In this document: positions 6,917 to 37,899 of the stretch, one piece after another | Layout of the letters: every line of letters starts with the position of its first letter | Numbering within the stretch: the stretch's first letter is position 1 | NCBI GenBank assembly: GCA_965232815.1 | Contig: OZ247427.1 | Coordinates: forward strand, 2,201,602-2,265,601 | Source: Dehalococcoidia bacterium | GTDB lineage: Bacteria > Chloroflexota > Dehalococcoidia > Lucifugimonadales > UBA3495 | DNA: 64,000 nt | Reading direction: 5' to 3' | Translations under genes and position numbers: made by a program | Notes under the pieces: generated by a model | The model's database searches: none | Told to the model about the DNA's origin: nothing | The model's input: only the letters and a program-made list of their open reading frames with translations

Positions 6917-7978
6917 ATGCTTACGCAGATCGCAAAGGGTCGCGTGTACGACTACAGCCATTCGGTCGGACGCGGCGCCGCCTCCGGAATGGGTTTCAGC
7001 CAACCCACTTCAATGGCTTTTGAGGGCAACACGGTATACGTGCTGAACCGGGGCATCGAAGGCATCTCCAACGTGCCGTGGAACAAGCTGGCTTATGGCG
7101 CCCGTGTCAGTATCATCGATTTGGGCGAAAACCCCGGCGACGAAGAGTTCACCGGCGAGTTCGGGAAGTATGGGGACCGCGACGGCGAGTTCATCTGGCC
7201 CTCCGGCATGGTGCTCGCCCCCAACGGCCATCTCTACATCGCTGACGAATGGCTCAACGAAGTCTCGGAGTTCGACAAGGGCGGCACGTTCATCAACAAG
7301 TGGAGCGCGGTCCCGGACGACGGCAAGGAACACGCCACCTCCAGCCTGGCGGTCGACGCTGACGGAAATATCTACTGCACCGATGGTCGCAGCCACCAGG
7401 TCCGCAAGTTCACCGGCGAAGGCAAATTGATCACCAGTTGGGGATCTTTGGGCGACGGCAACGGAGAGTTCAATTCCCCGTGGGGTATCACGGTCGACCA
7501 GAGCGATGGGTCCGTCTACGTGGCCGACCACCGCAATCACCGCGTGCAGAAATTCACCGCGTCCGGCCAGTGGCTGATGCAGTTCGGAGAACCCGGTACC
7601 AAGCGCGGCCAGATGCACCTCCCGGTGAAGGTCACCATCGATCACCAGGGCGATGTGTACGTCGCGGACTGGAGCGACAACGGCATGCACCCGGGCCGTG
7701 TCCATATATTCGACAAGGAAGGCAACTTCATCATCTCCCTAATCGGCGATGCACAGCAGTTGAGCAAGTGGGCCGACATGACGGTGGTTGCCAACGCCGA
7801 CTATCTGAAGCGGCGCCGTGAGGTTTCCACCACCGAGTCCGAGTGGCGGTTCGCCCTGCCCACCGACCTGCATTTCGACGAAGACAGTGGCCGCCTCGTG
7901 GTGCTGGATGCCCAGCGCAGCCGGCTGCAGATCTACAACAAGATGGACAACTACCTGGTTCCTCAGATGAACCTGTGA
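6917..7978 (+). CDS. NHL-repeat beta-propeller protein
   Basis: Repeated units of the form GEFxxPxGxxVDxxGxxYVADxxNHRVQKF. Confidence 0.8.
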   Translation: MLTQIAKGRVYDYSHSVGRGAASGMGFSQPTSMAFEGNTVYVLNRGIEGISNVPWNKLAYGARVSIIDLGENPGDEEFTGEFGKYGDRDGEFIWPSGMVLAPNGHLYIADEWLNEVSEFDKGGTFINKWSAVPDDGKEHATSSLAVDADGNIYCTDGRSHQVRKFTGEGKLITSWGSLGDGNGEFNSPWGITVDQSDGSVYVADHRNHRVQKFTASGQWLMQFGEPGTKRGQMHLPVKVTIDHQGDVYVADWSDNGMHPGRVHIFDKEGNFIISLIGDAQQLSKWADMTVVANADYLKRRREVSTTESEWRFALPTDLHFDEDSGRLVVLDAQRSRLQIYNKMDNYLVPQMNL

Positions 7979-8000
7979 TCCATTCTAACGGATAGCACGT

Positions 8001-8032
8001 GTAGGGGCGAATCAACATTCGCCCCTACTTTT
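8001..8032 (+). terminator. hairpin GTAGGGGCGAAT/ATTCGCCCCTAC followed by TTTTA
   Basis: A perfect 12-bp stem with a 4-nt loop, 23 nt after the NHL gene stop. Same hairpin family as 1087, 43368 and 48735. Confidence 0.6.
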
Positions 8033-8047
8033 ACCCACGCGGCAGAT

Positions 8048-8374
8048 ATGATTACTCAGGCTCAGGAACCCGAATACGTCCAACTGGCGGAGGCGTCCCC
8101 TGCCATGCTGTGCCGCGACGCGCCCCCTGAAATTCTGGAAGCGTGCGCCCTCGACAACGAGCCCACGCCGTTCCTGGAGCAGTTCTTCGAGGCGGGGATT
8201 CGCGCTCATGCTCGTGCGGCCCACGGGCGTGAACTGCCGCAAATGTACGTGAACAACGCCATACTCGTGCTGTGGTTGCGGGCTTGCCGCCTCTACACCA
8301 ACGGTCTCTTGGGCGTTACGGACCCGGACTGGGAGAAGGGATTTTTCTCCAGCGTCGACGTGACACCCAGCTAA
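8048..8374 (+). CDS. hypothetical protein
   Basis: An open frame only, with no recognisable motif and no clear RBS. Confidence 0.3.
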   Translation: MITQAQEPEYVQLAEASPAMLCRDAPPEILEACALDNEPTPFLEQFFEAGIRAHARAAHGRELPQMYVNNAILVLWLRACRLYTNGLLGVTDPDWEKGFFSSVDVTPS

Positions 8375-27880: not shown

Positions 27881-27972
27881 CTCACGGTTGCCTGTCGTCA
27901 GGTCTCACGGTTGCCTGTCGTCAGGTCTCACGGTTGCCTGTCGTCAGGTCTCACGGTTGCCTGTCGCCAGGT
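27881..27972. repeat. tandem repeat, 23 bp x 4 (CTCACGGTTGCCTGTCGTCAGGT)
   Basis: Copies at 27881, 27904, 27927 and 27950. The last copy has one T>C change. There are no spacers. Confidence 0.95.
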
Positions 27973-27979
27973 CTTTCAG

Positions 27980-28259
27980 ATACCGACTTTCGCCGGTATG
28001 ACGGTTTGGGTTCTTGACGGTTTCCTCAAGTCTGAACAGTCACGCGCGACCGGCCGGCAAATGTCCTGCGCTCCACCGGCGTTCGACAGACACCGTTGCT
28101 CGACAGACAGCTTGCTCGCCGAACCGCGTCCCAGTCGCCGAACCACATCCTGACTTAATGAAATGGCCTCGGTGCGGGTAGGGGAGGACGATCTGCGGTA
28201 ACAGTTTAGAGTTGGCGGCAGCCGCGTCATGTAGGCGTCATTCCCGCGGAAGCGGGAAT
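27980..28259. repeat. further family-2 hairpins (ATACCGACTTTCGCCGGTAT at 27980-27999; ATTCCCGCGGAAGCGGGAAT at 28240-28259)
   Basis: Short perfect stems with GTCAT / CCAGAA-type flanks in both orientations. Together with 27838 they form a REP/BIME-like cluster. Confidence 0.7.
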
Positions 28260-28439
28260 CCAGAAGCCCGCGTATCACCGAGCGTGAGTAGTGCCAGCAA
28301 CTCATGGCTACCAGTCCTCGCCGGTATGATCGTTTTGGTTTGAGGCGACCATTTCAACTCTGAACTGTTGCGCAAGATGGTAACTGTTCACGTTTGAGGG
28401 GATGGAGGCGATCTCCAACGGACATTTTGTCCTGGACTG

Positions 28440-28970
28440 ACCTCCCGGAACAGGCCAATATCGCTGCGGATCCCATCATGCCTGAACAGATACACAAAAT
28501 AATCTGGAAGGAGAAATATGATGCTGGATGAACTCCTGAACGCAGCGGGTGCGTTACCTGACCGCGAGTGGGGCCACCGGTTCGGCTGCCCGCCTGCCGG
28601 TTCGGCTGCCCGCCTGAAGGCTGCCACCTCAAAGACAAGACTGGCGTCACCCGGTACTGCAAAGACCAGCGCTACGAGAAGCCCCAAGGCAAGTTGTTGC
28701 GGATAGTGGGCCTGCTGCCCCGCTGCTCAGACGAGTGGAAAACCGAGTACAAAAAGCGGACGACGGACGATGGAGCGGCACTTCAGCAGCGTGAAGCATA
28801 GTCGGCTGATGAACCAGCGCCGCAACTTCAACATCATTCAAAGGTTTTCTACTCATGCCATCAGCGTAACCGACGTCCCATCCTCACCCCAGGAACCATC
28901 CCCGCACGTTTGGCCCGTTGTCACACACCCTCTAAGCCAGCTACTGTGGCAAAATGCCGTCCATGAGTAA
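28440..28970 (+). pseudogene. C-terminal remnant of a DDE transposase, multiply frameshifted
   Basis: Pieces in three frames: ...GHRFGCPP(E)GCHLKDKTGVTRYCKDQRYEKPQGKLLRIVGLLPRCSDEWKTEYKKRTT, then (M)ERHFSSVKHSRLMNQRRNFNII. This resembles the conserved C-terminus (YxKRxxxERxFSxxK) of IS4/IS5-superfamily transposases. No N-terminal half is present. Confidence 0.5.
28577..28616. repeat. perfect 20-bp tandem duplication (CCGGTTCGGCTGCCCGCCTG x2)
   Basis: Copies at 28577-28596 and 28597-28616. Removing one copy fuses ORFs 28518.. and 28568.. into one frame. Confidence 0.95.
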
Positions 28971-31900
28971 GCCGAGCTTCAAGCAAATCACCGAGGACTA
29001 CTTCACGACGCTGCAGCAAGTCGGACGCTCTGGCGGCGCGACCGGTGAGCGTTCTCTGTATGGCCCCCTCGCCAACCTGCTGAACGCAGTAGGAAGCACG
29101 CTGAGACCAAAGGTCTTCTGCGTCCAGGAACTCGCCGACCAGGGCGCAGGTCATCCCGACTTTGGCCTGTACACGACGCGGCAGGTGCAAAAGGGCACTC
29201 CGAAATCGGGGCAAAAGCCGGAACGCGGGGTGATAGAAGTCAAATCAGTCGAGGACGACGCACGGCTAACTGCCCAGAGTGACCAGGTCGCCGGCTACTG
29301 GCTGGGTTACCGGCAGGTGCTGGTGACCAACGCGCGCGACTTCGTGCTGGTGGGCGAGGACGCCGCCGGCAACCCGGTCCGCCTGGAATCCCTGCGGCTG
29401 GCGGATTCGGCGGCGCAGTTCGACGCGAAGCTGGAACATCCGATGGCCTTCGCCAACGAGGTCGGCCCCGGGCTGGGCGAGTACCTGACCCGCGTGCTGT
29501 CCCACGCCGCGTCGCTGTCCGAGCCGAAGGACGTGGCGTGGCTGCTGGCGTCCTACGCCCGCGACGGGTTGGCAAGGGTTGAACATGCCGGCGATGCCAC
29601 GTCGCTGGCCACATTGCGGCAGGCGCTTGAAGATTCGCTGGGGGTGCAGTTCGACGGCGATCAGGGCGCGGCTGTCTTCCGGTCCACACTGGTGCAGACC
29701 CTCTTCTACGGCGTCTTCTCCGCCTGGGTGCTGTGGGCGCGGCAGACACCCAAACCGGACGGCCTCTTCAACTGGCACGACGCGGTCTGGCATCTGCGGG
29801 CGCCGGTGCTGCGCGCGTTGTTCCAGCAGCTATCCGACCCCGGGAAGTTGCAGCCGCTGGGACTGGTGGAGGTGCTGGACTGGACCGCCGCCGCGCTCAA
29901 CCGGGTGGAACGGGACGCCTTCTTTGCGAAGTTCAGCGAGGGCGAGGCCGTGCCCTACTTCTACGAACCCTTCCTGCAGGCATTCGACCCCGACCTGCGC
30001 AAGCAGCTTGGCGTCTGGTACACGCCCGCCGAGGTGGTGCGCTACATGGTGGCGCGAGTGGACAAGGCGCTGAAAGACGACCTTGGCATCCCCGACGGGC
30101 TGGCCGGCGAGAACGTGTACGTGCTTGATCCCTGCTGCGGCACCGGCGCGTACCTGGCCGAGGTTCTCCGCCGCATCGCCGCCAACCTGCGGGACAAGGG
30201 ACTCGGCGCGCTCACCGGCGCGCAGGTCAAACAGGCGGCCACCCAGCGCGTCTTCGGCTTCGAGATCATGCCGGCCCCCTTCGTGGTGGCGCACCTGCAG
30301 GTCGGCCTCGCCATGCAGGAATTGGACGCCCCGCTGTCCGACGACGGCGACGAACGGGCCGGCGTCTTCCTCACCAACGCGCTGACGGGCTGGGAGCCCA
30401 CGGTGCAGAAGCCCCTGCCCTTTCCCGAACTGGAGCAGGAACGAGAGCGCGCCGAACGGGTCAAGCAGGACACGCCGGTGCTGGTCATCCTGGGCAACCC
30501 GCCCTACAACGGCTTTGCCGGCATGGCCGTAGACGAGGAACGCGAACTGTCCCAGGCCTACCGCACCACCAGGCAGGTACGGCGTCCCGAAGGCCAGGGG
30601 CTGAATGACCTCTACGTGCGCTTCTTCCGCATGGCCGAGCGACGCATCGCGGAGAAGACCGGCCAGGGCGTGGTGTGCTTCATCTCCAACTACTCTTGGC
30701 TGGACGGTCTCTCCTTCACCGGCATGCGCGAACGCTACCTGGAGGCCTTCGACGCCATCCGCATCGACAATCTGCACGGCGACCGCATCATTTCAGAGTA
30801 CGCGCCTGACGGGCACACCAGCGAAACGGTCTTCGCATTGCAGGGGCAATCTCCCGGCATCAAGGTCGGCACGAGCATCACGCTGCTATCCAAGTCATCG
30901 GCGGCCGAATCAAAGGACAAACGCATCCTGTACCGTGACTTCCATCAGGCGCGGGCGGACGAAAGGCGTATGGCTTTGCTGCGAAGTCTTGAGGCCCCCG
31001 ACATTGATTCAGGCTATTCGCCAATGAACTGCAACCTTTCCCTGGGTTTGCCGTTCAAACCCATGGCGGTCAGCGACGGTTGGCAGGACTGGCCATCGCT
31101 GCCGGATTTGTTCCCGACGTCATTCCCGGGCGTGAAAACCAGCCGCGACGGTTTCTTGGTCGACGTTGACCTCGACCACCTGCAGCATCGAGTCGCTGAC
31201 TACTTCAACGCCGACCTGGGCCACGAAGAGATCACGCGCCGCTATCCCGGCGTGATGAAGCCCACCGCACGGTTCAACGCCCGCACCGTCCGCGACCAGT
31301 TGGTTAAGTGCGGCGGGCCGGCCGAGGACGGTTTCGTCCGCTATGCCTACCGTCCGTTCGACAACCGCTGGCTCTACTGGGACGCCGATGGCACGCTGCT
31401 GGATCGCCCCCGCGCCGATTACAAGCCGCACGTTTTCGAGGGGAACTTGTGGCTGGTGGCCCAGCATAAACCGCGTAGGGAATGGGGATCAGCGCAAGTC
31501 ATCACCCATATGGGTTGCATTGACCTGATGGACCGCAGCGCCACCTGCACCCCAATGTGGCTTTTGGACGACGGCCTCGACATCGACGGTACTGACTCGC
31601 AACACCGCCCCAACCTGTCGCTCGCCGCGCAACACTATCTGGGACGCCTGGGGTTGGGCGCTGAGGACCTGTTCCACCACGTCATCGCCACGCTGCACGA
31701 TCCCGAGTACCGCACCACCAACGCCGGCGCCCTGCGCATGGAGTGGCCACGCATCCCGCTGCCCGGCTGGCCCGACGGCGACGCTCACGGCGCGGCTGAT
31801 GCACTGGCGGAATCGGCGGCGCGAGGCCGGCAGTTGGCCGCCCTGCTGGACTCCGATACCCCCGTCGCCGGCGTGACCACCGGCGCGCTGCGTCCCGAAC

Positions 31901-32316
31901 TCGCCGCCATCGCCGTGCCCACGACGACGGACGGCGGCAACATGGCGGGCGAGGACTTCGTGGTGTCCGCCGGCTGGGGACACTTCGGCACGGGCGATGC
32001 CGTCATGCCTGGCCAGGGCAGAATCGTGGAACGCGACTACACGGACAAGGAACGAGCCGAGCTGACCGACGCCATCCCGACGCTGCACGACACCACCTAC
32101 GACGTGTATCTGAACGACCGTGCCTACTGGCGCAACGTCCCCGCCGCCGTCTGGAACTACCAGCTCGGGGGCTACCAGGTTCTCAAGAAGTGGCTGTCCT
32201 ACCGCGAGAGCAAGGTGCTGAGCCGCCCTTTGTTGCCGGAAGAAGTTCAACACTTTACGGACACGGCGCGACGGATCGCTGCGATCCTAAAGGTGACGAA
32301 ACAGCTTCAGAACTGA
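28954..32316 (+). CDS. single-chain restriction-modification-like enzyme: N-terminal PD-ExK nuclease-like domain + gamma-class N6-adenine DNA methyltransferase + Type-ISP-like C-terminal specificity domain
   Basis: HPD(69)F...GVIE(95)VK(97)S, WYTPAEVVRYMV, motif I VLDPCCGTGAYL, motif IV ILGNPPYNGF, and the C-terminal YRPFDNRWLYWD and VWNYQLGGYQVLKKWLSYRE. No helicase domain. Confidence 0.8.
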   Translation: MPSMSKPSFKQITEDYFTTLQQVGRSGGATGERSLYGPLANLLNAVGSTLRPKVFCVQELADQGAGHPDFGLYTTRQVQKGTPKSGQKPERGVIEVKSVEDDARLTAQSDQVAGYWLGYRQVLVTNARDFVLVGEDAAGNPVRLESLRLADSAAQFDAKLEHPMAFANEVGPGLGEYLTRVLSHAASLSEPKDVAWLLASYARDGLARVEHAGDATSLATLRQALEDSLGVQFDGDQGAAVFRSTLVQTLFYGVFSAWVLWARQTPKPDGLFNWHDAVWHLRAPVLRALFQQLSDPGKLQPLGLVEVLDWTAAALNRVERDAFFAKFSEGEAVPYFYEPFLQAFDPDLRKQLGVWYTPAEVVRYMVARVDKALKDDLGIPDGLAGENVYVLDPCCGTGAYLAEVLRRIAANLRDKGLGALTGAQVKQAATQRVFGFEIMPAPFVVAHLQVGLAMQELDAPLSDDGDERAGVFLTNALTGWEPTVQKPLPFPELEQERERAERVKQDTPVLVILGNPPYNGFAGMAVDEERELSQAYRTTRQVRRPEGQGLNDLYVRFFRMAERRIAEKTGQGVVCFISNYSWLDGLSFTGMRERYLEAFDAIRIDNLHGDRIISEYAPDGHTSETVFALQGQSPGIKVGTSITLLSKSSAAESKDKRILYRDFHQARADERRMALLRSLEAPDIDSGYSPMNCNLSLGLPFKPMAVSDGWQDWPSLPDLFPTSFPGVKTSRDGFLVDVDLDHLQHRVADYFNADLGHEEITRRYPGVMKPTARFNARTVRDQLVKCGGPAEDGFVRYAYRPFDNRWLYWDADGTLLDRPRADYKPHVFEGNLWLVAQHKPRREWGSAQVITHMGCIDLMDRSATCTPMWLLDDGLDIDGTDSQHRPNLSLAAQHYLGRLGLGAEDLFHHVIATLHDPEYRTTNAGALRMEWPRIPLPGWPDGDAHGAADALAESAARGRQLAALLDSDTPVAGVTTGALRPELAAIAVPTTTDGGNMAGEDFVVSAGWGHFGTGDAVMPGQGRIVERDYTDKERAELTDAIPTLHDTTYDVYLNDRAYWRNVPAAVWNYQLGGYQVLKKWLSYRESKVLSRPLLPEEVQHFTDTARRIAAILKVTKQLQN

Positions 32317-32329
32317 GGACGGCTCAAGA

Positions 32330-33003
32330 ATGATCTACGATGTACAGAGACTGGTGAAGAACTGTCTCACGGCGTTGCCCGTGGCCTGTGAAGGCGTTTC
32401 AATCGAGGCTTTGGAAAACCGCATACCGACAGACCTCCTCGGAGGGCGTCAGCCTACTTTTCGTTTAGAGGGTGTTCTCCGGCCGGCTGGTTGGTACCAG
32501 CGCCACCATGGACTACTGGGTGGTGGATTGGAGCTTCAGGCCAGAAGGTGCTACTGCACCGCGGAAGCCAGACAGGGGAAGCCAGACAGGCTTGTCAGGA
32601 TCGCAAGAGCATCCCTGCATCGAGTGCGTTGCCGGAAATCACCACAGACTACGAAACCAACCTGCAGGCGGCCTTCTGGAATTGGGTATGCAATCGGCAG
32701 GCGGGCGACAACCCACGAGGCGACTTCATTCGGGACACCAGGGATCTGCTGAGGGTAGGCAGAGATTCACCGGACGAAGTGCTCGAGAGCGCCTGCGCAA
32801 AGGCAATCGAAAAGTACCTCACCCTCCGCACCCGCTGGGCGGCTGAGGTTGGTGTCCATCCCTGGGACTGTACCCCGCTTGACGGCAAAGCGAAGATCAA
32901 GGGATCTGGATGGTACTACTGCTGCTCGCAGTGCGACAACTGCGACTGCGACGGCGTGAGCGGGTGCAATTGTGGCTGCAATAACTGCTCAACTGAAGAA
33001 TGA
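32330..33003 (+). pseudogene. Cys-rich-tailed small protein gene split by a 14-bp tandem duplication
   Basis: The ATG is 13 nt after the RM stop. The frame changes at the duplication, and the downstream frame runs to the stop at 33001-33003 and ends GSGWYYCCSQCDNCDCDGVSGCNCGCNNCSTEE. Removing one repeat copy gives one 219-aa ORF. Alternatively, only the distal part is a real gene. Confidence 0.45.
32563..32590. repeat. perfect 14-bp tandem duplication (GGAAGCCAGACAGG x2)
   Basis: Copies at 32563-32576 and 32577-32590, read directly from the sequence. Confidence 0.95.
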
Positions 33004-33057
33004 ATCAACCCACCTTGAAGAGAACGACGCGGACCACTCGGATACGCGCGAGGCTTC

Positions 33058-33809
33058 ATGCAATATCACCTGGACCTGTTTACTCCTGAGACATGGCAGG
33101 CCTTCACAGAAGCTGGAGCAGCATGCACAGGCGCGGAGCCCGACTACGACGCGTAGCCCGACTACGACGCGTAGCCAACGAACGAGTCAAACCGGGAGAC
33201 ATCCTCCTCTGCTACATGACGCGCGTATCCCGCTGGTGCGGTGTGCTGGAAGTCGAATCCGGACCTTTCGAAGACGATACTCCGAAGTTTGGCGCCACTG
33301 ACCCGTACCCAATCCGGTTCAACGTCAAACCAGTCGTCATCTTGAACACGGAGTCGGCGGTACCCATACGAGACCCACAGGTCTGGCCGGCTTTAACCAT
33401 CACCAACCGGCTCGAGCCTGGCAACCCTTACTGGACAGGATTCTTCAGGCAATCCCTGAATACCTTCGACGACGACGACGGGAGTTTCCTGGTGGATCTT
33501 CTCAAAAGACAGCAGTCAGGCCCGGAAGCGTACCCGCTCACCGACCAAGACCGGCGTCGGCTCAACCGGAGGCAGAGAGTCCGTACACTGACAGGAGAGG
33601 TTGATGTCAGCATCCCAGACGCTGAGGATGAAGAACTCTCACCTGAATCGAGAAACGCAGAATCGGACCAACGGACCAACTACCAGGAATCCATCCAATA
33701 CCAAGCGAAAGTAGCCCAAATCGGCGTCGAAATGGGATTCCATGTCTGGGTGCCGAGAAGCGACAAAGTGCGGGTCATGGAACTCCTCCAGCCGGCAGCA
33801 CATGAATAG
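33058..33809 (+). pseudogene. PUA/EVE-like domain protein with the beginning of a restriction-endonuclease-like domain; frameshifted and 3'-truncated
   Basis: MQYHLDLFTPETWQAFTEAGAACTG (frame of 33058, stop at 33154-33156) continues logically as ...RLRRVANERVKPGDILLCYMTRVSRWCGVLEV in the frame of ORF 33093. The ORF ends at ...IQYQAKVAQIGVEMGFHVWVPRSDK, before any D...ExK core. Confidence 0.5.
33137..33172. repeat. perfect 18-bp tandem duplication (AGCCCGACTACGACGCGT x2)
   Basis: Copies at 33137-33154 and 33155-33172. It encodes ARLRRV twice in the 33093 frame. Confidence 0.95.
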
Positions 33810-33888: not shown

Positions 33889-34404
33889 GGCTTTGCCTAA
33901 AAAGTCTGCGCGACGGGTCAGTTTTCGGACAAGTTTGAGACTTTTTGGGCAGAGGCAATCTTCGTGAACTCGACTGTGAGACCGAGACTGTAGATCGACC
34001 GTATCAGAACATACAAATTGTTCGCGAGAAGTTTGCAGAGCACCGCGTTGGCCTGACTTGACGGACGAGCCGGGAAACAGGGCAGGGATGTGTTGGTGAT
34101 GCCTGAGGTGGCGGAGGACCAAAAACGGTAAAGCCCCACCCCTGACATTGTTACCCTGCGTCGGGGAGACCTGCTCAACCGCGGGTCTCCCCGATTTGCT
34201 GTGAGAGCCACCGAGGTTCTCAAAATCGCGGATTCGTCGGGTTTCAGGAACCGTCTCACGTTGGGAGCGAGAATCGCTCAGTGCCATCTGCCCACGGAAG
34301 GGACTGGTTGGTCACACCCATACGGCCTATGGGCCCCGGTCGGTCTTCTCAATGGCAGATGGCGTACTCCATTGTATTGCGATCGTCCACAATCGTTTTG
34401 CCTG

Positions 34405-34433
34405 TTGACGAAGAGGTCGCCCCGGCATAGAAT
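34405..34433 (+). promoter_or_regulatory. sigma70-type promoter (TTGACG - 17 nt - TAGAAT)
   Basis: -35 at 34405-34410 and -10 at 34428-34433, 68 nt upstream of the ATG at 34501. Confidence 0.55.
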
Positions 34434-34460
34434 TGGGCATAATATTGTTGCTCTTGGTAA

Positions 34461-34480
34461 AGCCTTGAACTCTCAAGGCT
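34461..34480 (+). promoter_or_regulatory. perfect 8-4-8 palindrome AGCCTTGAactcTCAAGGCT between promoter and RBS (candidate operator)
   Basis: Read directly from the sequence. It lies in the 5' UTR of the operon that encodes an XRE-type HTH protein. Confidence 0.45.
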
Positions 34481-34500
34481 GACGCATAACGGAGTGGTTT

Positions 34501-35082
34501 ATGGTACCAGCCCGAATTGAAATCGAGATGGACGACGCCTGCGCGATTTTGGACCCGTTCCTGCCGCGGTGCGTGGACATCCTATTGGACTTTATGGATA
34601 AGGTTAACTCCCCACAAATGGCCTCCCTGCGCGGTTCCATGGGACGCCGCACGTTCTGCTCGTTGCTGGCCGATGATTTTTATTCCCAAATGGAGCAGGC
34701 ACCAGAGCACGGAGTCCGTTTCGAGCGTCGTCAAGACAAAGGCCAGCATTTCATTGTGTTTCAGGATCTTCTGGCCCTTCGAGTCAAACAGATTGGCAGG
34801 CAATATCTTTCATGGAATCTGCCGACCACCCATTCGCTGCGGTGGAACCTCGGGTTGCCGTCTCCAGAGATCGGCCCGCTTCCTACGCTGGAATTGGGGT
34901 ACCATCTGGACGCCCTGATGAATGGCTACCGCGGCATCCACCTCTTGCAGCGGTTCGAGAAAGTCGTGGATTGGCGTCAGCAGATTTACGGTGTCCAAAC
35001 CGATGCCTTCGACACCGAGCAACCGCGACTGCATGGCTTGGGCGGCAGCCGTAAGGTATACCGGTATAGACCGATCCGCTAA
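34501..35082 (+). CDS. hypothetical protein (193 aa), first gene of the cassette operon
   Basis: GGAG RBS about 9 nt upstream, and the stop is 11 nt before the next ATG. No motif recognised. Confidence 0.6.
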   Translation: MVPARIEIEMDDACAILDPFLPRCVDILLDFMDKVNSPQMASLRGSMGRRTFCSLLADDFYSQMEQAPEHGVRFERRQDKGQHFIVFQDLLALRVKQIGRQYLSWNLPTTHSLRWNLGLPSPEIGPLPTLELGYHLDALMNGYRGIHLLQRFEKVVDWRQQIYGVQTDAFDTEQPRLHGLGGSRKVYRYRPIR

Positions 35083-35093
35083 CACTGGATGCG

Positions 35094-36455
35094 ATGATGA
35101 CTTCGAAAAGCGTCAACCCTCAACTGATCCAATTGGCTCGACAATCGCGTGGCCTGACCCAAACCGCGCTCGCTGCAGGTATTGCGGTGGGCCAGTCCAT
35201 GATCGCCAGGTACGAATCTGGCGTGAAGGATGTGCCGCTCGACCACCTCAACAGGTTGTCCGAGGTTCTGGATTATCCGGTTCGTTTTTTCACTCGCCCG
35301 ATGGGCCGGGCCGGGTCTGGAAGTGAGATATTCCACCGCAAGCGAGCCCGGGTCCCCGCCAATGTCCTGGGGCGCAACTACGCAGACGCCACGATCCGGC
35401 GGATGGAGATCGACGCCCTGAGAGAATCTCTGGATGGGGTGTTCCCCTTCCCACCTTTTCCTTTCTATCCAATCGAGGAATTCGAGTACGACGCCGAGAA
35501 AATCGCCCGAACAGTCCGCGCTGCGTGGCGACTGCCGGACGGTCCGGTCTTCAACGTCACCAGGACGGTTGAGGAAAATGGCGGCATCGTTGTGGCTCAC
35601 AAGTTCGACTCACGTATCGACGGCTTCGGCTGCCGCACGCTGGGGCTTCCACCGGTCTTTCACCTCAACCGCGACCTCCCGCCAGACCGTTGGCGTTGGA
35701 CGCTGGCCCACGAGATCGGCCACATGGTGATGCACGTCGAAGCGGGCCAGCCCCATAATGAGGCGGAAGACCAAGCGCACCGGTTCGCGGCAGAGTTTCT
35801 TTGCCCTGCATACCAGATAGAGCCGCAATTACGGGGGCTGAACATGGGAAAGTTGGCCCCATTGAAAATGCAGTGGAAAGTATCCATGGCAGCGTTGGTC
35901 AAAAGAGCCAACGACGTGGGAACCATCGACGCCAAGCAGTACAAATCGCTGATGGTGCGGTTATCCCAACAAGGGTACCGAACCCGGGAGCCCTCCAATC
36001 TGGACCCACCAGAAGAACGCCCTACCTTACTGTTCGATCTGGCTCAGTATTTTGAGCAAAGCATGGAGTTCTCTCGCTCTGAAGTGCTGGCGCTGCTCAA
36101 CATCGGCGAGACCGATTTCTGGACCTACTACCGGGACCCGGACGACATTTTCGGCGACATTATGGGGCAACCGTCCCAAGGACAAGGAGACAACGACGTG
36201 TCCGAACAGGTAGCGCATTTGCGCCTGCACGCAGGAGCCCCACCGGTTCACCGCCAACTGGGATGCGCTCCTGAGGATGTGGGACGAGACCAAAAGTTGC
36301 TGGACGCTCTCCATCTTTTGCAGATGGAGAACATATTACCGGAGCGGTTGGTGGAAGCCAGCGAGGAACGGGTACGCTCCAGAATTGAGACCACCCATAA
36401 TAGGCAACGTTTCACCGACGACCTGGATAGGCTCTACGGTTCCGATTATCAGTGA
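35094..36455 (+). CDS. fused XRE-family HTH / ImmA-IrrE (M78, COG2856) zinc metallopeptidase with about 100-aa C-terminal extension
   Basis: The HTH QLIQLARQSRGLTQTALAAGIAVGQSMIARYESG, followed by the HExxH site LAHEIGHMVMH and EDQAHRFAAEFLCP. Confidence 0.85.
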   Translation: MMTSKSVNPQLIQLARQSRGLTQTALAAGIAVGQSMIARYESGVKDVPLDHLNRLSEVLDYPVRFFTRPMGRAGSGSEIFHRKRARVPANVLGRNYADATIRRMEIDALRESLDGVFPFPPFPFYPIEEFEYDAEKIARTVRAAWRLPDGPVFNVTRTVEENGGIVVAHKFDSRIDGFGCRTLGLPPVFHLNRDLPPDRWRWTLAHEIGHMVMHVEAGQPHNEAEDQAHRFAAEFLCPAYQIEPQLRGLNMGKLAPLKMQWKVSMAALVKRANDVGTIDAKQYKSLMVRLSQQGYRTREPSNLDPPEERPTLLFDLAQYFEQSMEFSRSEVLALLNIGETDFWTYYRDPDDIFGDIMGQPSQGQGDNDVSEQVAHLRLHAGAPPVHRQLGCAPEDVGRDQKLLDALHLLQMENILPERLVEASEERVRSRIETTHNRQRFTDDLDRLYGSDYQ

Positions 36456-36720
36456 TAAGGCAGACGTCACCCCGCCGTCATAATCGGTCCCAAATCGGTG
36501 GAGGCGGGCCTTCAACCGACTGGGACCAAGCCTTGGTTACAGCGAGAACGGAAACCATGTTGAGTGATTGAAGGCGGAACTATCTGCCCGCACTGCATAC
36601 GCAATTTTCAATTGCCATCCTCGCCGAGGACCCTCTTGGAGTTATGGATGAGTCGCCACCGTGAGGCGCGGGATCCGTCGGTGACCGACCGTAGGGCTGC
36701 TGTTTCATGAGAGAGGTGTT

Positions 36721-37638
36721 ATGTACAACCTTTTGGTGGTGAACTACGACGACGCCCCCAACTACTGGGAGAACAATGCCACGCGATGGGTACGGGCATT
36801 GCCACAGGGATGGGGACTCAATCGCATGCCGGGACGAGAGCGATGGGACGAGCTACGGAAACGTCCCTGTCTCTTTACATACGAACTCAAACCGCCCGCG
36901 GTTGTAGGGCATATCGGCGAAATCGTAGATGTGGACTTTCCAGATATCAAGTACGAATTGGAAGACAGTATTGAAATCAGTCGCGACTGTCTCCGCGACC
37001 TTGGCTTCAAAACCGGTGATGAACATAGAACGCAATGGATCGAGAAAGAGGATGTTGACCTGTACAAAGTCGTAACCAAATGGCGACGGGAGGAATGTAA
37101 CGTCCGCCCCTTGCCCACAGAAGCAGAAAAGAGGCGGGTATGGGGGAACGATTACCTGTGGAAGCCTCGGTTGTTTTTGAGCCACCGTGCAGCATATCGC
37201 AGCAAAGTTTCGCAAGTGAAAGTGCTGCTGGAGCATGCAGGAGGCGCCTGCTTCGTCGCTCACGATGACATTGAGCCCGGCTCCATCTGGCATGACGAGA
37301 TCATCCACGCCTTGGATACCATGCAGGTATTCATCGGATTCATAACCGACGATTTCCATACAGGAGGTTGGCCCGACCAAGAAGTCGGGTATGCACACCA
37401 GAGGGGAATCCCGAAAGTCTTCCTGAAGTTAGGACAATGCGATCCTAGAGGCGCGGTGGCTATTGAACAGGCATTGTCTGCGAACTGGAATAACGCAGTT
37501 GCTAAACTGATCCTACATTTGCGCGAGAGCGGACTCATGCCCAAACAAGGGCCAGCATGGCCTTTGCCGAAAGACGAGGATCGCCTGCCGTGGGAACCCT
37601 ATATTGACGAGCACGGGTCCTTCCACCCTCCTGCATAG
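36721..37638 (+). CDS. TIR-like domain protein with unknown about 150-aa N-terminal domain
   Basis: The C-terminal half RLFLSHRAAYRSKVSQVKVLLEHAGGACFVAHDDIEPGSIWHDEIIHALDTMQVFIGFITDDFHTGGWPDQEVGYA follows the bacterial TIR pattern (FLSH...K..., W..eI..al, S.W..qE.g.a). RBS GAGAGAGG. Confidence 0.65.
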   Translation: MYNLLVVNYDDAPNYWENNATRWVRALPQGWGLNRMPGRERWDELRKRPCLFTYELKPPAVVGHIGEIVDVDFPDIKYELEDSIEISRDCLRDLGFKTGDEHRTQWIEKEDVDLYKVVTKWRREECNVRPLPTEAEKRRVWGNDYLWKPRLFLSHRAAYRSKVSQVKVLLEHAGGACFVAHDDIEPGSIWHDEIIHALDTMQVFIGFITDDFHTGGWPDQEVGYAHQRGIPKVFLKLGQCDPRGAVAIEQALSANWNNAVAKLILHLRESGLMPKQGPAWPLPKDEDRLPWEPYIDEHGSFHPPA

Positions 37639-37899
37639 AACGACGACTACTGCCTGATGGTTACGCCTAGACCAACATCCGAAGTGCGGCGTGCGGATGG
37701 CCGGCGACCAACCTGCGGCGATCTAATCGGCCCGCTCGCAACTCGACGGCCGATGATGTTGTGGGTCATCGTCACCCTGTCCCCAAATCGGGTGAACTGT
37801 CCGAAAATTGCTATTACGGGACAAAGCCTGTGAGCGCACGATTTCTGATATGAAAGACCTGCGGTACTTTTTGGGCAGAACGAGACTTTATAGGCAAGG

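What the first reader, a model, noticed from the sequence alone, without database searches (positions are those of the whole stretch)
32330..33003. Cys-rich-tailed gene split by a perfect 14-bp tandem duplication; removing one copy restores a 219-aa ORF
Seen: GGAAGCCAGACAGG occurs twice in tandem (32563-32576, 32577-32590). The ORF starting at 32330 (13 nt after the RM stop) reads ...CTAEARQ through copy 1. The frame that reaches the stop at 33001-33003 reads EARQACQDRK... from copy 2. Deleting 14 bp joins them exactly. The product would end GSGWYYCCSQCDNCDCDGVSGCNCGCNNCSTEE (9 Cys in 33 residues). The segment AFWNWVCNRQAGDNPRGDFIRDTRD faintly recalls YozE/SAM-like small domains, but this memory-based match is weak. 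Inference: this is either a very recent inactivation or a reversible slippage switch of an RM-linked accessory gene. The Cys-dense tail could be a metal cluster, a metallothionein-like segment or a RiPP-like segment. I know of no described RM partner of this kind.
Basis: partly seen in the sequence, partly recalled or inferred. Interest (0 to 1): 0.6.

Follow-up and report, generated by a model that had tools for sequence, protein, structure and literature searches.

The report
Fixed frameshift pseudogene beside restriction enzyme
A 14-base tandem duplication really does break a small gene next to a restriction-modification enzyme, but the break is old, is present in every sampled strain and is decaying neutrally, so it is an ordinary dead gene of an uncharacterised family and not a recent event or an on/off switch.

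Summary
GGAAGCCAGACAGG occurs twice in perfect tandem (32563-32590). Removing one copy gives a 219-aa ORF. Intact 215-236-aa homologues (53-63% identity) align across the junction without a gap.

Seven DNA loci (five haplotypes), three further database proteins and one JGI contig of this SAR202 (Chloroflexota) lineage carry the lesion. Ten have two copies and one has three. None has one. In one haplotype the copies have begun to diverge. Two sequences carry further 1-nt frameshifts. Invariant residues have been replaced.

pN/pS is 1.0 in both halves, against 0.05-0.21 in neighbouring genes. Intact homologues give dN/dS 0.13-0.22. This is therefore a fixed, neutrally decaying pseudogene.

The upstream Type IIG enzyme is intact and under purifying selection, so it does not need this partner.

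The intact family has three parts: a weakly supported winged-helix-like N-domain, an unannotated four-helix "FWxWV...PRGDFIRDTR" domain, and a Cys/Asp-rich tail. The four-helix domain occurs in about 200 small proteins from many phyla, in mobile and defence islands. The YozE resemblance failed three tests.

The parts
28954..32316 (+). Upstream 1120-aa Type IIG restriction-modification enzyme. It is intact and under purifying selection. It is context, not part of the pseudogene.
   Evidence: PADLOC REase_MTase_IIG, 2.8e-96. Pfam N6_Mtase, Eco57I and Type_ISP_C. pN/pS is 0.07 for the 5' part and 0.21 for the 3' part. It is 75-76% identical to the enzymes that precede intact partners in L019 and L024.
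32330..32562 (+). Proximal part of the pseudogene (codons 1-78). It encodes the N-terminal domain with a helix-helix-helix-strand-strand pattern, which is winged-helix-like.
   Evidence: It aligns to residues 1-78 of the intact homologues. AF2 secondary structure, pLDDT about 60-72. The best Foldseek hits are winged-helix proteins but are not significant. Polymorphisms: 7 nonsynonymous, 2 synonymous.
32563..32576 (+). Copy 1 of the 14-bp unit GGAAGCCAGACAGG.
   Evidence: Copy 1 carries a G-to-A change in haplotype L027/L028/L029.
32577..32590 (+). Copy 2 of the 14-bp unit. This is the extra copy that shifts the frame by +14 nt.
   Evidence: A third copy is present in L026.
32591..33003 (+). 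Distal part of the pseudogene, read in the frame whose codons start at 32590, with stop at 33001-33003. It contains the conserved four-helix domain and the Cys/Asp-rich tail.
   Evidence: It aligns to residues 83-219 of the homologues. Polymorphisms: 10 nonsynonymous, 3 synonymous, including W165L and Y191C at conserved columns.
32641..32859 (+). The 'FWxWV...PRGDFIRDTR' four-helix domain (residues 100-172 of the restored protein). It is not annotated in any library searched.
   Evidence: Profile search found 185 representative proteins at E<=1e-3, mostly 60-100 aa stand-alone. A second search found 201 proteins. AF2 pLDDT 83, four helices. No match in Pfam, NCBIfam, PADLOC, PDB or BFVD.
32902..33000 (+). 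Cys/Asp-rich tail (residues 187-219; 9 Cys in 33 residues).
   Evidence: The tail is conserved in 10 of 12 full-length homologues. It is different in P0011 and nearly Cys-free in P0012. AF2 pLDDT is below 50.

Best explanation
The locus is a fixed, neutrally decaying pseudogene.

Shown: in an ancestor of this sponge-associated SAR202 (Chloroflexota) population, a 14-bp tandem duplication arose in the poorly conserved linker between the N-terminal domain and the central domain of a 219-aa protein. It shifted the reading frame.

Shown: every sampled strain carries the lesion. Since it arose, both halves have accumulated substitutions at the neutral ratio (pN/pS about 1). Further damage has followed: extra 1-nt frameshifts, replacement of invariant residues, a third repeat copy in one contig, and divergence between the two copies in one haplotype.

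Shown: the upstream Type IIG restriction-modification gene stays intact and under purifying selection. Inferred: it works without this partner.

Inferred: in lineages where the family is intact and under purifying selection, the protein is most likely a nucleic-acid-binding accessory factor carried on mobile defence cassettes. It combines a winged-helix-like head, a new four-helix module and a possibly metal-binding tail. In one clade it is translationally coupled to the Type IIG gene. That function is not tested here.
For: - Intact homologues of 215-236 aa cover 93-100% of the restored protein and cross the junction without a gap.
- In all, 11 sequences carry the lesion. Seven are DNA loci forming five haplotypes (window, L005, L026, L027=L028=L029, L030). 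Three are further database proteins (P0015, P0018, P0020). One is a JGI contig. Ten have two copies and L026 has three. None has one.
- No protein more than 63% identical with a single copy exists among 5.8 billion clusters.
- Substitutions: 7 nonsynonymous to 2 synonymous proximally and 10 to 3 distally. Combined pN/pS is 1.00. Controls give 0.05 (M20 peptidase), 0.07 (Type IIG 5' part) and 0.21 (Type IIG 3' part). Fisher p values are 6e-8, 1.6e-7 and 1.5e-3.
- Intact family members give dN/dS 0.13-0.22.
- Secondary lesions: a 1-nt deletion in L030, another frameshift in P0020, W165L in L026, Y191C in L027, and a G-to-A change in copy 1 of L027.
- No canonical -1 slippery heptamer lies in the proximal frame.
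Against: - The counts are small (22 variable sites). At low divergence (pS 0.035), pN/pS is known to be inflated.
- Both half-frames are still open in most haplotypes.
- The repeat is copy-number polymorphic (2 against 3 copies), so slippage does occur, and reversion to one copy is mechanistically possible.
A minority one-copy subpopulation is therefore not excluded.
- Contig collapse by assemblers could hide rare alleles.
Confidence: 0.85

Rival explanations
1. It is a slow contingency (phase-variable) locus. The 14-mer tract gains and loses copies by slippage. One copy or four copies would be ON, and two or three copies OFF. This would switch an accessory factor of the Type IIG system.
For: Copy number differs between assemblies: two copies in most and three in L026. 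RM-associated genes are classic phase-variable loci (general knowledge; review PMC11868660 listed, not read here). Both half-frames are still open in the window.
Against: No ON allele occurs among 11 sequences or in the protein and metagenome collections. pN/pS is 1.0. Secondary frameshifts and loss of invariant residues are present. The copies are diverging in L027, which reduces slippage. A 14-nt unit at two copies is far from known SSR switches.
Confidence: 0.06
2. The gene is still used in split or recoded form. Either the distal ORF (the 151-170-aa call, holding the four-helix domain and tail) is expressed on its own, as the stand-alone 60-100-aa homologues are. Or a -1 ribosomal frameshift in the GGGG at the copy junction makes a full-length protein with a 5-aa insertion.
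For: Stand-alone versions of the central domain are common. The distal 330 nt are identical between the window and L005. The required shift is -1, and the copy junction creates CAG GGG AAG (inference).
Against: Distal pN/pS is 0.92, with W165L and Y191C at conserved columns. The GTG start of the 151-aa call has no spaced Shine-Dalgarno sequence (by inspection). No canonical X XXY YYZ heptamer is present. The proximal half has a further frameshift in L030. Given the low overall divergence, a 330-nt identical stretch is only marginally unusual (about 0.02 by my own rough estimate from the differences).
Confidence: 0.07
3. The duplication is an assembly or sequencing artefact and the real gene is intact.
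For: Short tandem duplications can be produced by some long-read consensus errors (general knowledge).
Against: The same duplication occurs in independent assemblies from different projects and collections (NCBI GCA_026710825.1, GCA_001753035.1/MKWU01, JGI, and several ENA ERZ samples). Linked substitutions differ between them.
Confidence: 0.01

Closest known systems
Ordinary frameshift pseudogene created by a short tandem duplication (replication slippage)
   Same: A perfect head-to-tail duplication whose length is not a multiple of three. Collinear intact orthologues exist. Evolution is neutral after the lesion and secondary lesions have accumulated.
   Different: The lesion has persisted, and apparently travelled with a recombining defence cassette, across strains whose core genes differ at pS of about 0.19. 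The tract has since expanded to three copies in one contig.
Simple-sequence-repeat phase-variable genes of RM systems (for example Type III mod and Type I hsd genes of Haemophilus, Neisseria and Mycoplasma)
   Same: A repeat inside the coding sequence of a gene in an RM operon. Copy-number change alters the frame. Copy number is polymorphic.
   Different: The unit is 14 nt with only 2-3 copies. No ON allele is seen. Purifying selection is absent. The affected gene is not the methyltransferase or the specificity subunit.
YozE_SAM_like (PF06855) small helical proteins
   Same: A small all-helical domain of about 65 aa that begins with an aromatic-x-x-aromatic-V pattern. It often occurs as a stand-alone protein in mobile elements. 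This resemblance is recalled from memory only.
   Different: No HMM match in 90 members or in the six-frame genome search. No Foldseek match to any PDB entry. The PRGDFIRDTR motif is specific to the new family.
Controller (C) proteins and other small DNA-binding partners of RM systems
   Same: A small protein with a predicted DNA-binding-type fold, encoded in the same operon as a restriction enzyme.
   Different: It lies downstream, not upstream. It is about 219 aa with two extra domains. It shows no sequence similarity to HTH_3-type C proteins. It also occurs outside RM contexts.

Membership tests
Frameshift pseudogene by tandem duplication | Intact orthologues are collinear across the lesion once one repeat copy is removed. 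| tested here: met
   Twelve homologues show no gap at the junction.
Frameshift pseudogene by tandem duplication | The lesion is real, meaning it occurs in independent assemblies. | tested here: met
   Eleven sequences from NCBI, JGI and ENA carry two or more copies.
Frameshift pseudogene by tandem duplication | Relaxed selection after the lesion. | tested here: met
   pN/pS is 1.00, against 0.05-0.21 in neighbouring genes and 0.13-0.22 in intact homologues.
Frameshift pseudogene by tandem duplication | Secondary inactivating changes. | tested here: met
   A 1-nt deletion in L030, an extra frameshift in P0020, W165L, and Y191C.
SSR-type phase-variable (contingency) gene | Repeat copy number is polymorphic within the population. 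| tested here: met
   Two copies in ten sequences and three copies in L026.
SSR-type phase-variable (contingency) gene | Both in-frame (ON) and out-of-frame (OFF) alleles exist. | tested here: not met
   No one-copy or four-copy allele was found in the protein database, the loci or the JGI scan. Reads could not be tested.
SSR-type phase-variable (contingency) gene | The coding sequence is maintained by purifying selection. | tested here: not met
   pN/pS is 1.0 in both halves.
Programmed -1 ribosomal frameshift gene | A canonical X XXY YYZ slippery heptamer in the overlap of the two frames. | tested here: not met
   None occurs in the proximal frame between 32330 and 32752.
YozE_SAM_like (PF06855) | A match to the family HMM. 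| tested here: not met
   No hit at E<=10 for the restored protein, none at E<=1 for 90 domain members, and none in the six-frame search of the genome. The B. subtilis and L. lactis controls did ring.
YozE_SAM_like (PF06855) | Structural similarity to solved YozE-type structures. | tested here: not met
   Foldseek of the pLDDT-83 domain model against PDB gave no hit with E<=0.001 and a best TM-score of 0.41.
Type IIG RM enzyme (upstream gene) | A single chain with a nuclease region, a gamma-class N6-adenine methyltransferase and a target-recognition domain. | tested here: met
   PADLOC REase_MTase_IIG at 2.8e-96 and 1.2e-77, covering residues 20-937. Pfam N6_Mtase, Eco57I and Type_ISP_C.
RiPP precursor peptide | A short precursor with an adjacent maturase (radical SAM, cyclodehydratase, lanthionine synthetase or similar). 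| tested here: not met
   The protein is 219 aa. The neighbours scanned in the window and in six homologue loci are RM, DndB, integrase, transposase and unknown genes. No maturase family was found.
Metallothionein-like or zinc-binding tail | A conserved Cys pattern that binds metal. | tested here: inconclusive
   The tail pattern (consensus CCSECxNCDCDGxGCxCGCxxC) is kept in 10 of 12 homologues. It is rearranged in P0011 and nearly lost in P0012. pLDDT is below 50. Metal binding cannot be tested here.
Winged-helix DNA-binding domain (N-terminal part) | H-(S)-H-H-S-S topology and structural similarity to wHTH proteins. | tested here: inconclusive
   The secondary structure fits. The top Foldseek hits are PadR, Cdt1-WHD and LOTUS, but with E of 0.16-2 and a model pLDDT of 54.

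The most novel reading that the evidence does not exclude
The intact relatives of this dead gene define a new accessory component of a Type IIG restriction-modification clade. Its central 'FWxWV...PRGDFIRDTR' four-helix module is a so far undescribed defence-island and mobile-element domain. The module occurs stand-alone, fused to TIR, fused to zinc ribbons, and embedded in a Type I RM operon next to a HicB-like gene. It may act as a sensor or as a nucleic-acid-binding adaptor, and it appears to spread horizontally among many bacterial phyla.
Probability: 0.3. Interest if true: 0.5.

Novelty: new member of a known kind. Interest (0 to 1): 0.28.

Why it matters
For this genome, the result is a correct annotation. 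The two ORF fragments are one dead gene, not a switch, a RiPP or a metalloprotein in use. The Type IIG enzyme is autonomous.

More generally, the locus points to a small unannotated protein domain. It has about 200 known members and no Pfam, NCBIfam, PADLOC, PDB or BFVD counterpart. It recurs in defence and mobile islands of several phyla, many from the same set of metagenome samples. It is also part of a conserved two-gene module with a Type IIG enzyme. That domain could be worth an experimental look.

The island also shows that short tandem duplications are the main type of indel here: 4 of the genome's 70 near-perfect repeats fall within 5.3 kb.

Tried and rejected
- Pfam, NCBIfam, PADLOC and PHROGs scans of the restored protein and of stand-alone domain proteins gave nothing. 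The only exception was a weak phrog_8600 match (E 0.01-0.05, function unknown).
- A PDB sequence-profile search gave only noise.
- Foldseek of the domain model against PDB and BFVD gave no significant match.
- The full-length AF2 model was poor (pLDDT 54), so the tail structure and the arrangement of the domains are unknown.
- The YozE idea was rejected.
- The RiPP idea was rejected because of the protein's size and the lack of a maturase.
- -1 PRF was rejected because there is no slippery site and pN/pS is 1.
- Literature searches for a described Type IIG accessory protein of this kind found nothing relevant.
- The identical distal 330 nt between the window and L005 first looked like constraint. 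It is explained by the low overall divergence of this segment (pS 0.035).

Full report
**Observation**

The window contains GGAAGCCAGACAGG at 32563-32576 and again at 32577-32590. The repeat is perfect and exactly two copies long, and the bases on either side differ. A perfect 14-bp tandem pair is expected 2.4e-4 times by chance in 64 kb, so this is a real mutational event.

As it stands, the ORF from ATG 32330 runs on out of frame to 32752 (140 aa). The ATG lies 13 nt after the stop of the upstream gene. The frame ending at 33001-33003 is open from 32491.

**Is the restored gene real?**

Yes. A search of 5.8 billion protein clusters found 11 homologues of 215-236 aa, plus a truncated one of 175 aa (53-63% identity, 93-100% coverage for the full-length ones). 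They align across the junction without any gap. The restored ...CYCTAEARQACQDRKSIPASS matches the family consensus ...CYCxTESxExCExRKSIPASS.

Among intact members dN/dS is 0.13-0.22, which indicates a protein under purifying selection.

**Is the lesion recent, or an artefact?**

It is neither. The only close relatives in the database (one 90% cluster of nine members, from NCBI, JGI and ENA assemblies) are all calls of the distal fragment (151-169 aa). All carry the duplication signature GSQTG-EARQ.

I fetched DNA for six related loci (L005, L026-L030) and aligned them with the window. The window, L005, L027=L028=L029 and L030 have two copies. L026 has three copies, which is still out of frame (+28 nt).

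A gapped-pattern scan of the JGI metagenome collection would have caught one, two or three copies. It returned two contigs, both with two copies.

No one-copy allele exists in any collection searched. The haplotypes differ by linked substitutions, and they come from different projects and collections, so an assembly artefact is excluded.

In L027 copy 1 has already mutated (GGAAGCCAAACAGG). In L026 the third copy differs by one base. L030 carries a further 1-nt deletion in the proximal half, and P0020 a further frameshift.

**Selection**

Across the five haplotypes, the proximal half has 7 nonsynonymous and 2 synonymous variable sites (pN/pS 1.15). The distal half has 10 and 3 (pN/pS 0.92). 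Combined pN/pS is 1.00.

The same genomes give much lower values for the neighbouring genes:

| Gene | pN/pS | Fisher p against the pseudogene |
|---|---|---|
| M20 peptidase | 0.05 | 6e-8 |
| Type IIG, 5' part | 0.07 | 1.6e-7 |
| Type IIG, 3' target-recognition part | 0.21 | 1.5e-3 |

The replacements include W165L at an invariant column and Y191C at a nearly invariant one. Both halves therefore evolve neutrally.

This argues against three alternatives: a maintained ON/OFF switch, a functional distal mini-protein, and programmed frameshifting. The required shift would be -1, and no canonical slippery heptamer exists in the proximal frame.

One caveat applies. There are only 22 variable sites, and divergence is low.

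Silent divergence of the pseudogene segment (0.035) is five- to nine-fold lower than that of the flanking genes (0.17-0.30). The change is sharp at the Type IIG stop codon. I read this as a sign that the segment already carrying the lesion was exchanged among strains by recombination more recently than their core genomes split. This is an inference.

**Context**

The genome is a single 3.74-Mb contig. The closest named relatives are SAR202 and Chloroflexi MAGs, one of them from a shotgun assembly that probably belongs to the Aplysina aerophoba sponge study (PMC5649159, seen as an abstract; this link is my inference).

The gene lies in a variable defence island between an M20 peptidase gene and moaDE. 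The window carries:
- a Type IIG RM gene (PADLOC 2.8e-96);
- this pseudogene;
- a second decayed gene;
- a RosmerTA-like HTH-M78 gene;
- a TIR gene.

In L005 the 5' two-thirds of the Type IIG gene is replaced by a Type III RM system, and the Rosmer/TIR cassette is absent.

Four of the genome's 70 near-perfect tandem repeats with period >=10 lie within 27881-33176.

**Link to the RM gene**

In the lineages of P0001 and P0006, an intact 218-aa gene follows an 1117-aa Type IIG gene by 20 and 8 nt respectively. That Type IIG gene is 75-76% identical to the window's. A conserved two-gene module therefore exists.

Other members sit after a DndB gene (P0009), after unannotated genes (P0007), or without any large methyltransferase upstream (L006, a SAR202 bin). 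The association is therefore real in one clade but not obligatory.

In the window, L027 and L030 the Type IIG gene is full-length and constrained while the partner is dead. From this I infer that the enzyme does not depend on the partner.

**What the intact protein is**

No Pfam, NCBIfam or PADLOC family matches it. The full-length AF2 model is poor (pLDDT 54).

Its N-terminal 75 residues show an H-H-H-S-S pattern. The best Foldseek hits are winged-helix proteins (PadR, Cdt1 WHD, LOTUS), but they are not significant.

A profile search of 1.84 billion representative proteins found 185 hits. Nearly all are to residues about 100-170 only, mostly as stand-alone 60-100-aa proteins. A second search found 201.

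With 90 of these as the alignment, the domain folds confidently (pLDDT 83) into four helices. It has no significant match in PDB or BFVD, and none of the 90 members hits any Pfam family.

The YozE_SAM_like model finds nothing in the genome in six frames, although it rings in B. subtilis and L. lactis controls.

The domain occurs in MAGs of several phyla:
- Acidobacteriota (Terriglobia, Bryobacterales, Vicinamibacterales)
- Acidimicrobiales
- Gammaproteobacteria (including Arenicellales)
- Dehalococcoidia
- Mesorhizobium

Its contexts and fusions are as follows:
- inside a Type I RM operon after a HicB-like gene (L011);
- near a Type III Res gene (L007);
- next to a Phd antitoxin, transposases, integrases and a Cas6e-type gene;
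- fused to a TIR domain (L013), to zinc-ribbon-like ends (P0087, P0144), and to another unannotated motif (LPYxxY...NRxYxPLW).

Among 41 genomes of the genus and order, only two carry the domain. It behaves as a mobile, defence-island-associated module of unknown biochemical function.

The Cys/Asp-rich tail is conserved in most full-length members but is rearranged or nearly lost in two. A metal-binding role is plausible but untested. A RiPP role is unlikely, because the protein is 219 aa and no maturase lies nearby.

**Verdict**

The disruption is old and fixed. The locus is an ordinary pseudogene and not a recent event or a working switch (confidence about 0.85).

The residual interest lies in the intact family and its undescribed four-helix domain.

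Noticed in passing
window 33059-33809 (compare L005 8552-9529): The next gene downstream is also broken in the window. Its start (MQYHLDLFTPETWQAF...) gives a weak EVE/PUA-like NCBIfam PRK00809 hit. Relative to the intact 325-aa gene of L005, the window has a net +17 nt at 33135-33151, made of an 18-bp tandem duplication plus a 1-nt loss. Homology to L005 ends at about 33888, so the 3' end is also replaced.
   Followed up: partly
L005 8461-8500 and L030 (just after the stop codon equivalent to window 33003): Two related strains carry a 20-bp tandem duplication (AATGAATCAACCCACCTTGA) that starts at the stop codon of the pseudogene. The window lacks it. Short tandem duplications are the dominant indel type in this island.
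   Followed up: partly
window 27881-27974, 28083-28118, 28577-28616: A 23-bp x 4.1 array, a 17-bp x 2.2 repeat and a perfect 20-bp duplication lie in the non-coding stretch upstream of the Type IIG gene. Together with the two in-gene duplications, 4 of the genome's 70 near-perfect repeats with period >=10 fall within 5.3 kb.
   Followed up: no
window 31566-33003 versus L005, L027 and L030: Silent divergence drops sharply at the Type IIG stop codon. pS is 0.30 in the 3' target-recognition part and 0.17-0.19 in the 5' part and the M20 gene, but 0.035 in the pseudogene. This suggests mosaic recombination with a breakpoint at the gene boundary, and faster turnover of the specificity domain.
   Followed up: partly
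window 28229-31565 and 33889-37899 versus L005 1451-7033 and 9366-9823: The island is mosaic between strains. L005 has a Type III RM system (N6_N4_Mtase plus ResIII/RE_endonuc) in place of the 5' two-thirds of the Type IIG gene. It lacks the window's RosmerTA-like and TIR cassette.
   Followed up: partly
L011 5511-12651: In an Acidimicrobiales MAG, the stand-alone four-helix-domain gene (7958-8230) overlaps the end of a HicB-like gene. Both are embedded between hsdM and hsdS-hsdR of a Type I RM operon.
   Followed up: partly
L013 7005-8702; L014 7641-8243; L016 7971-8636; P0046, P0051, P0144: A second unannotated motif (LPY[CV]xY...NRxYxPLW) accompanies the PRGDFIRDTR domain on either side in several proteins. 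L013 additionally carries an N-terminal TIR domain (TIR_2, 1e-13).
   Followed up: no
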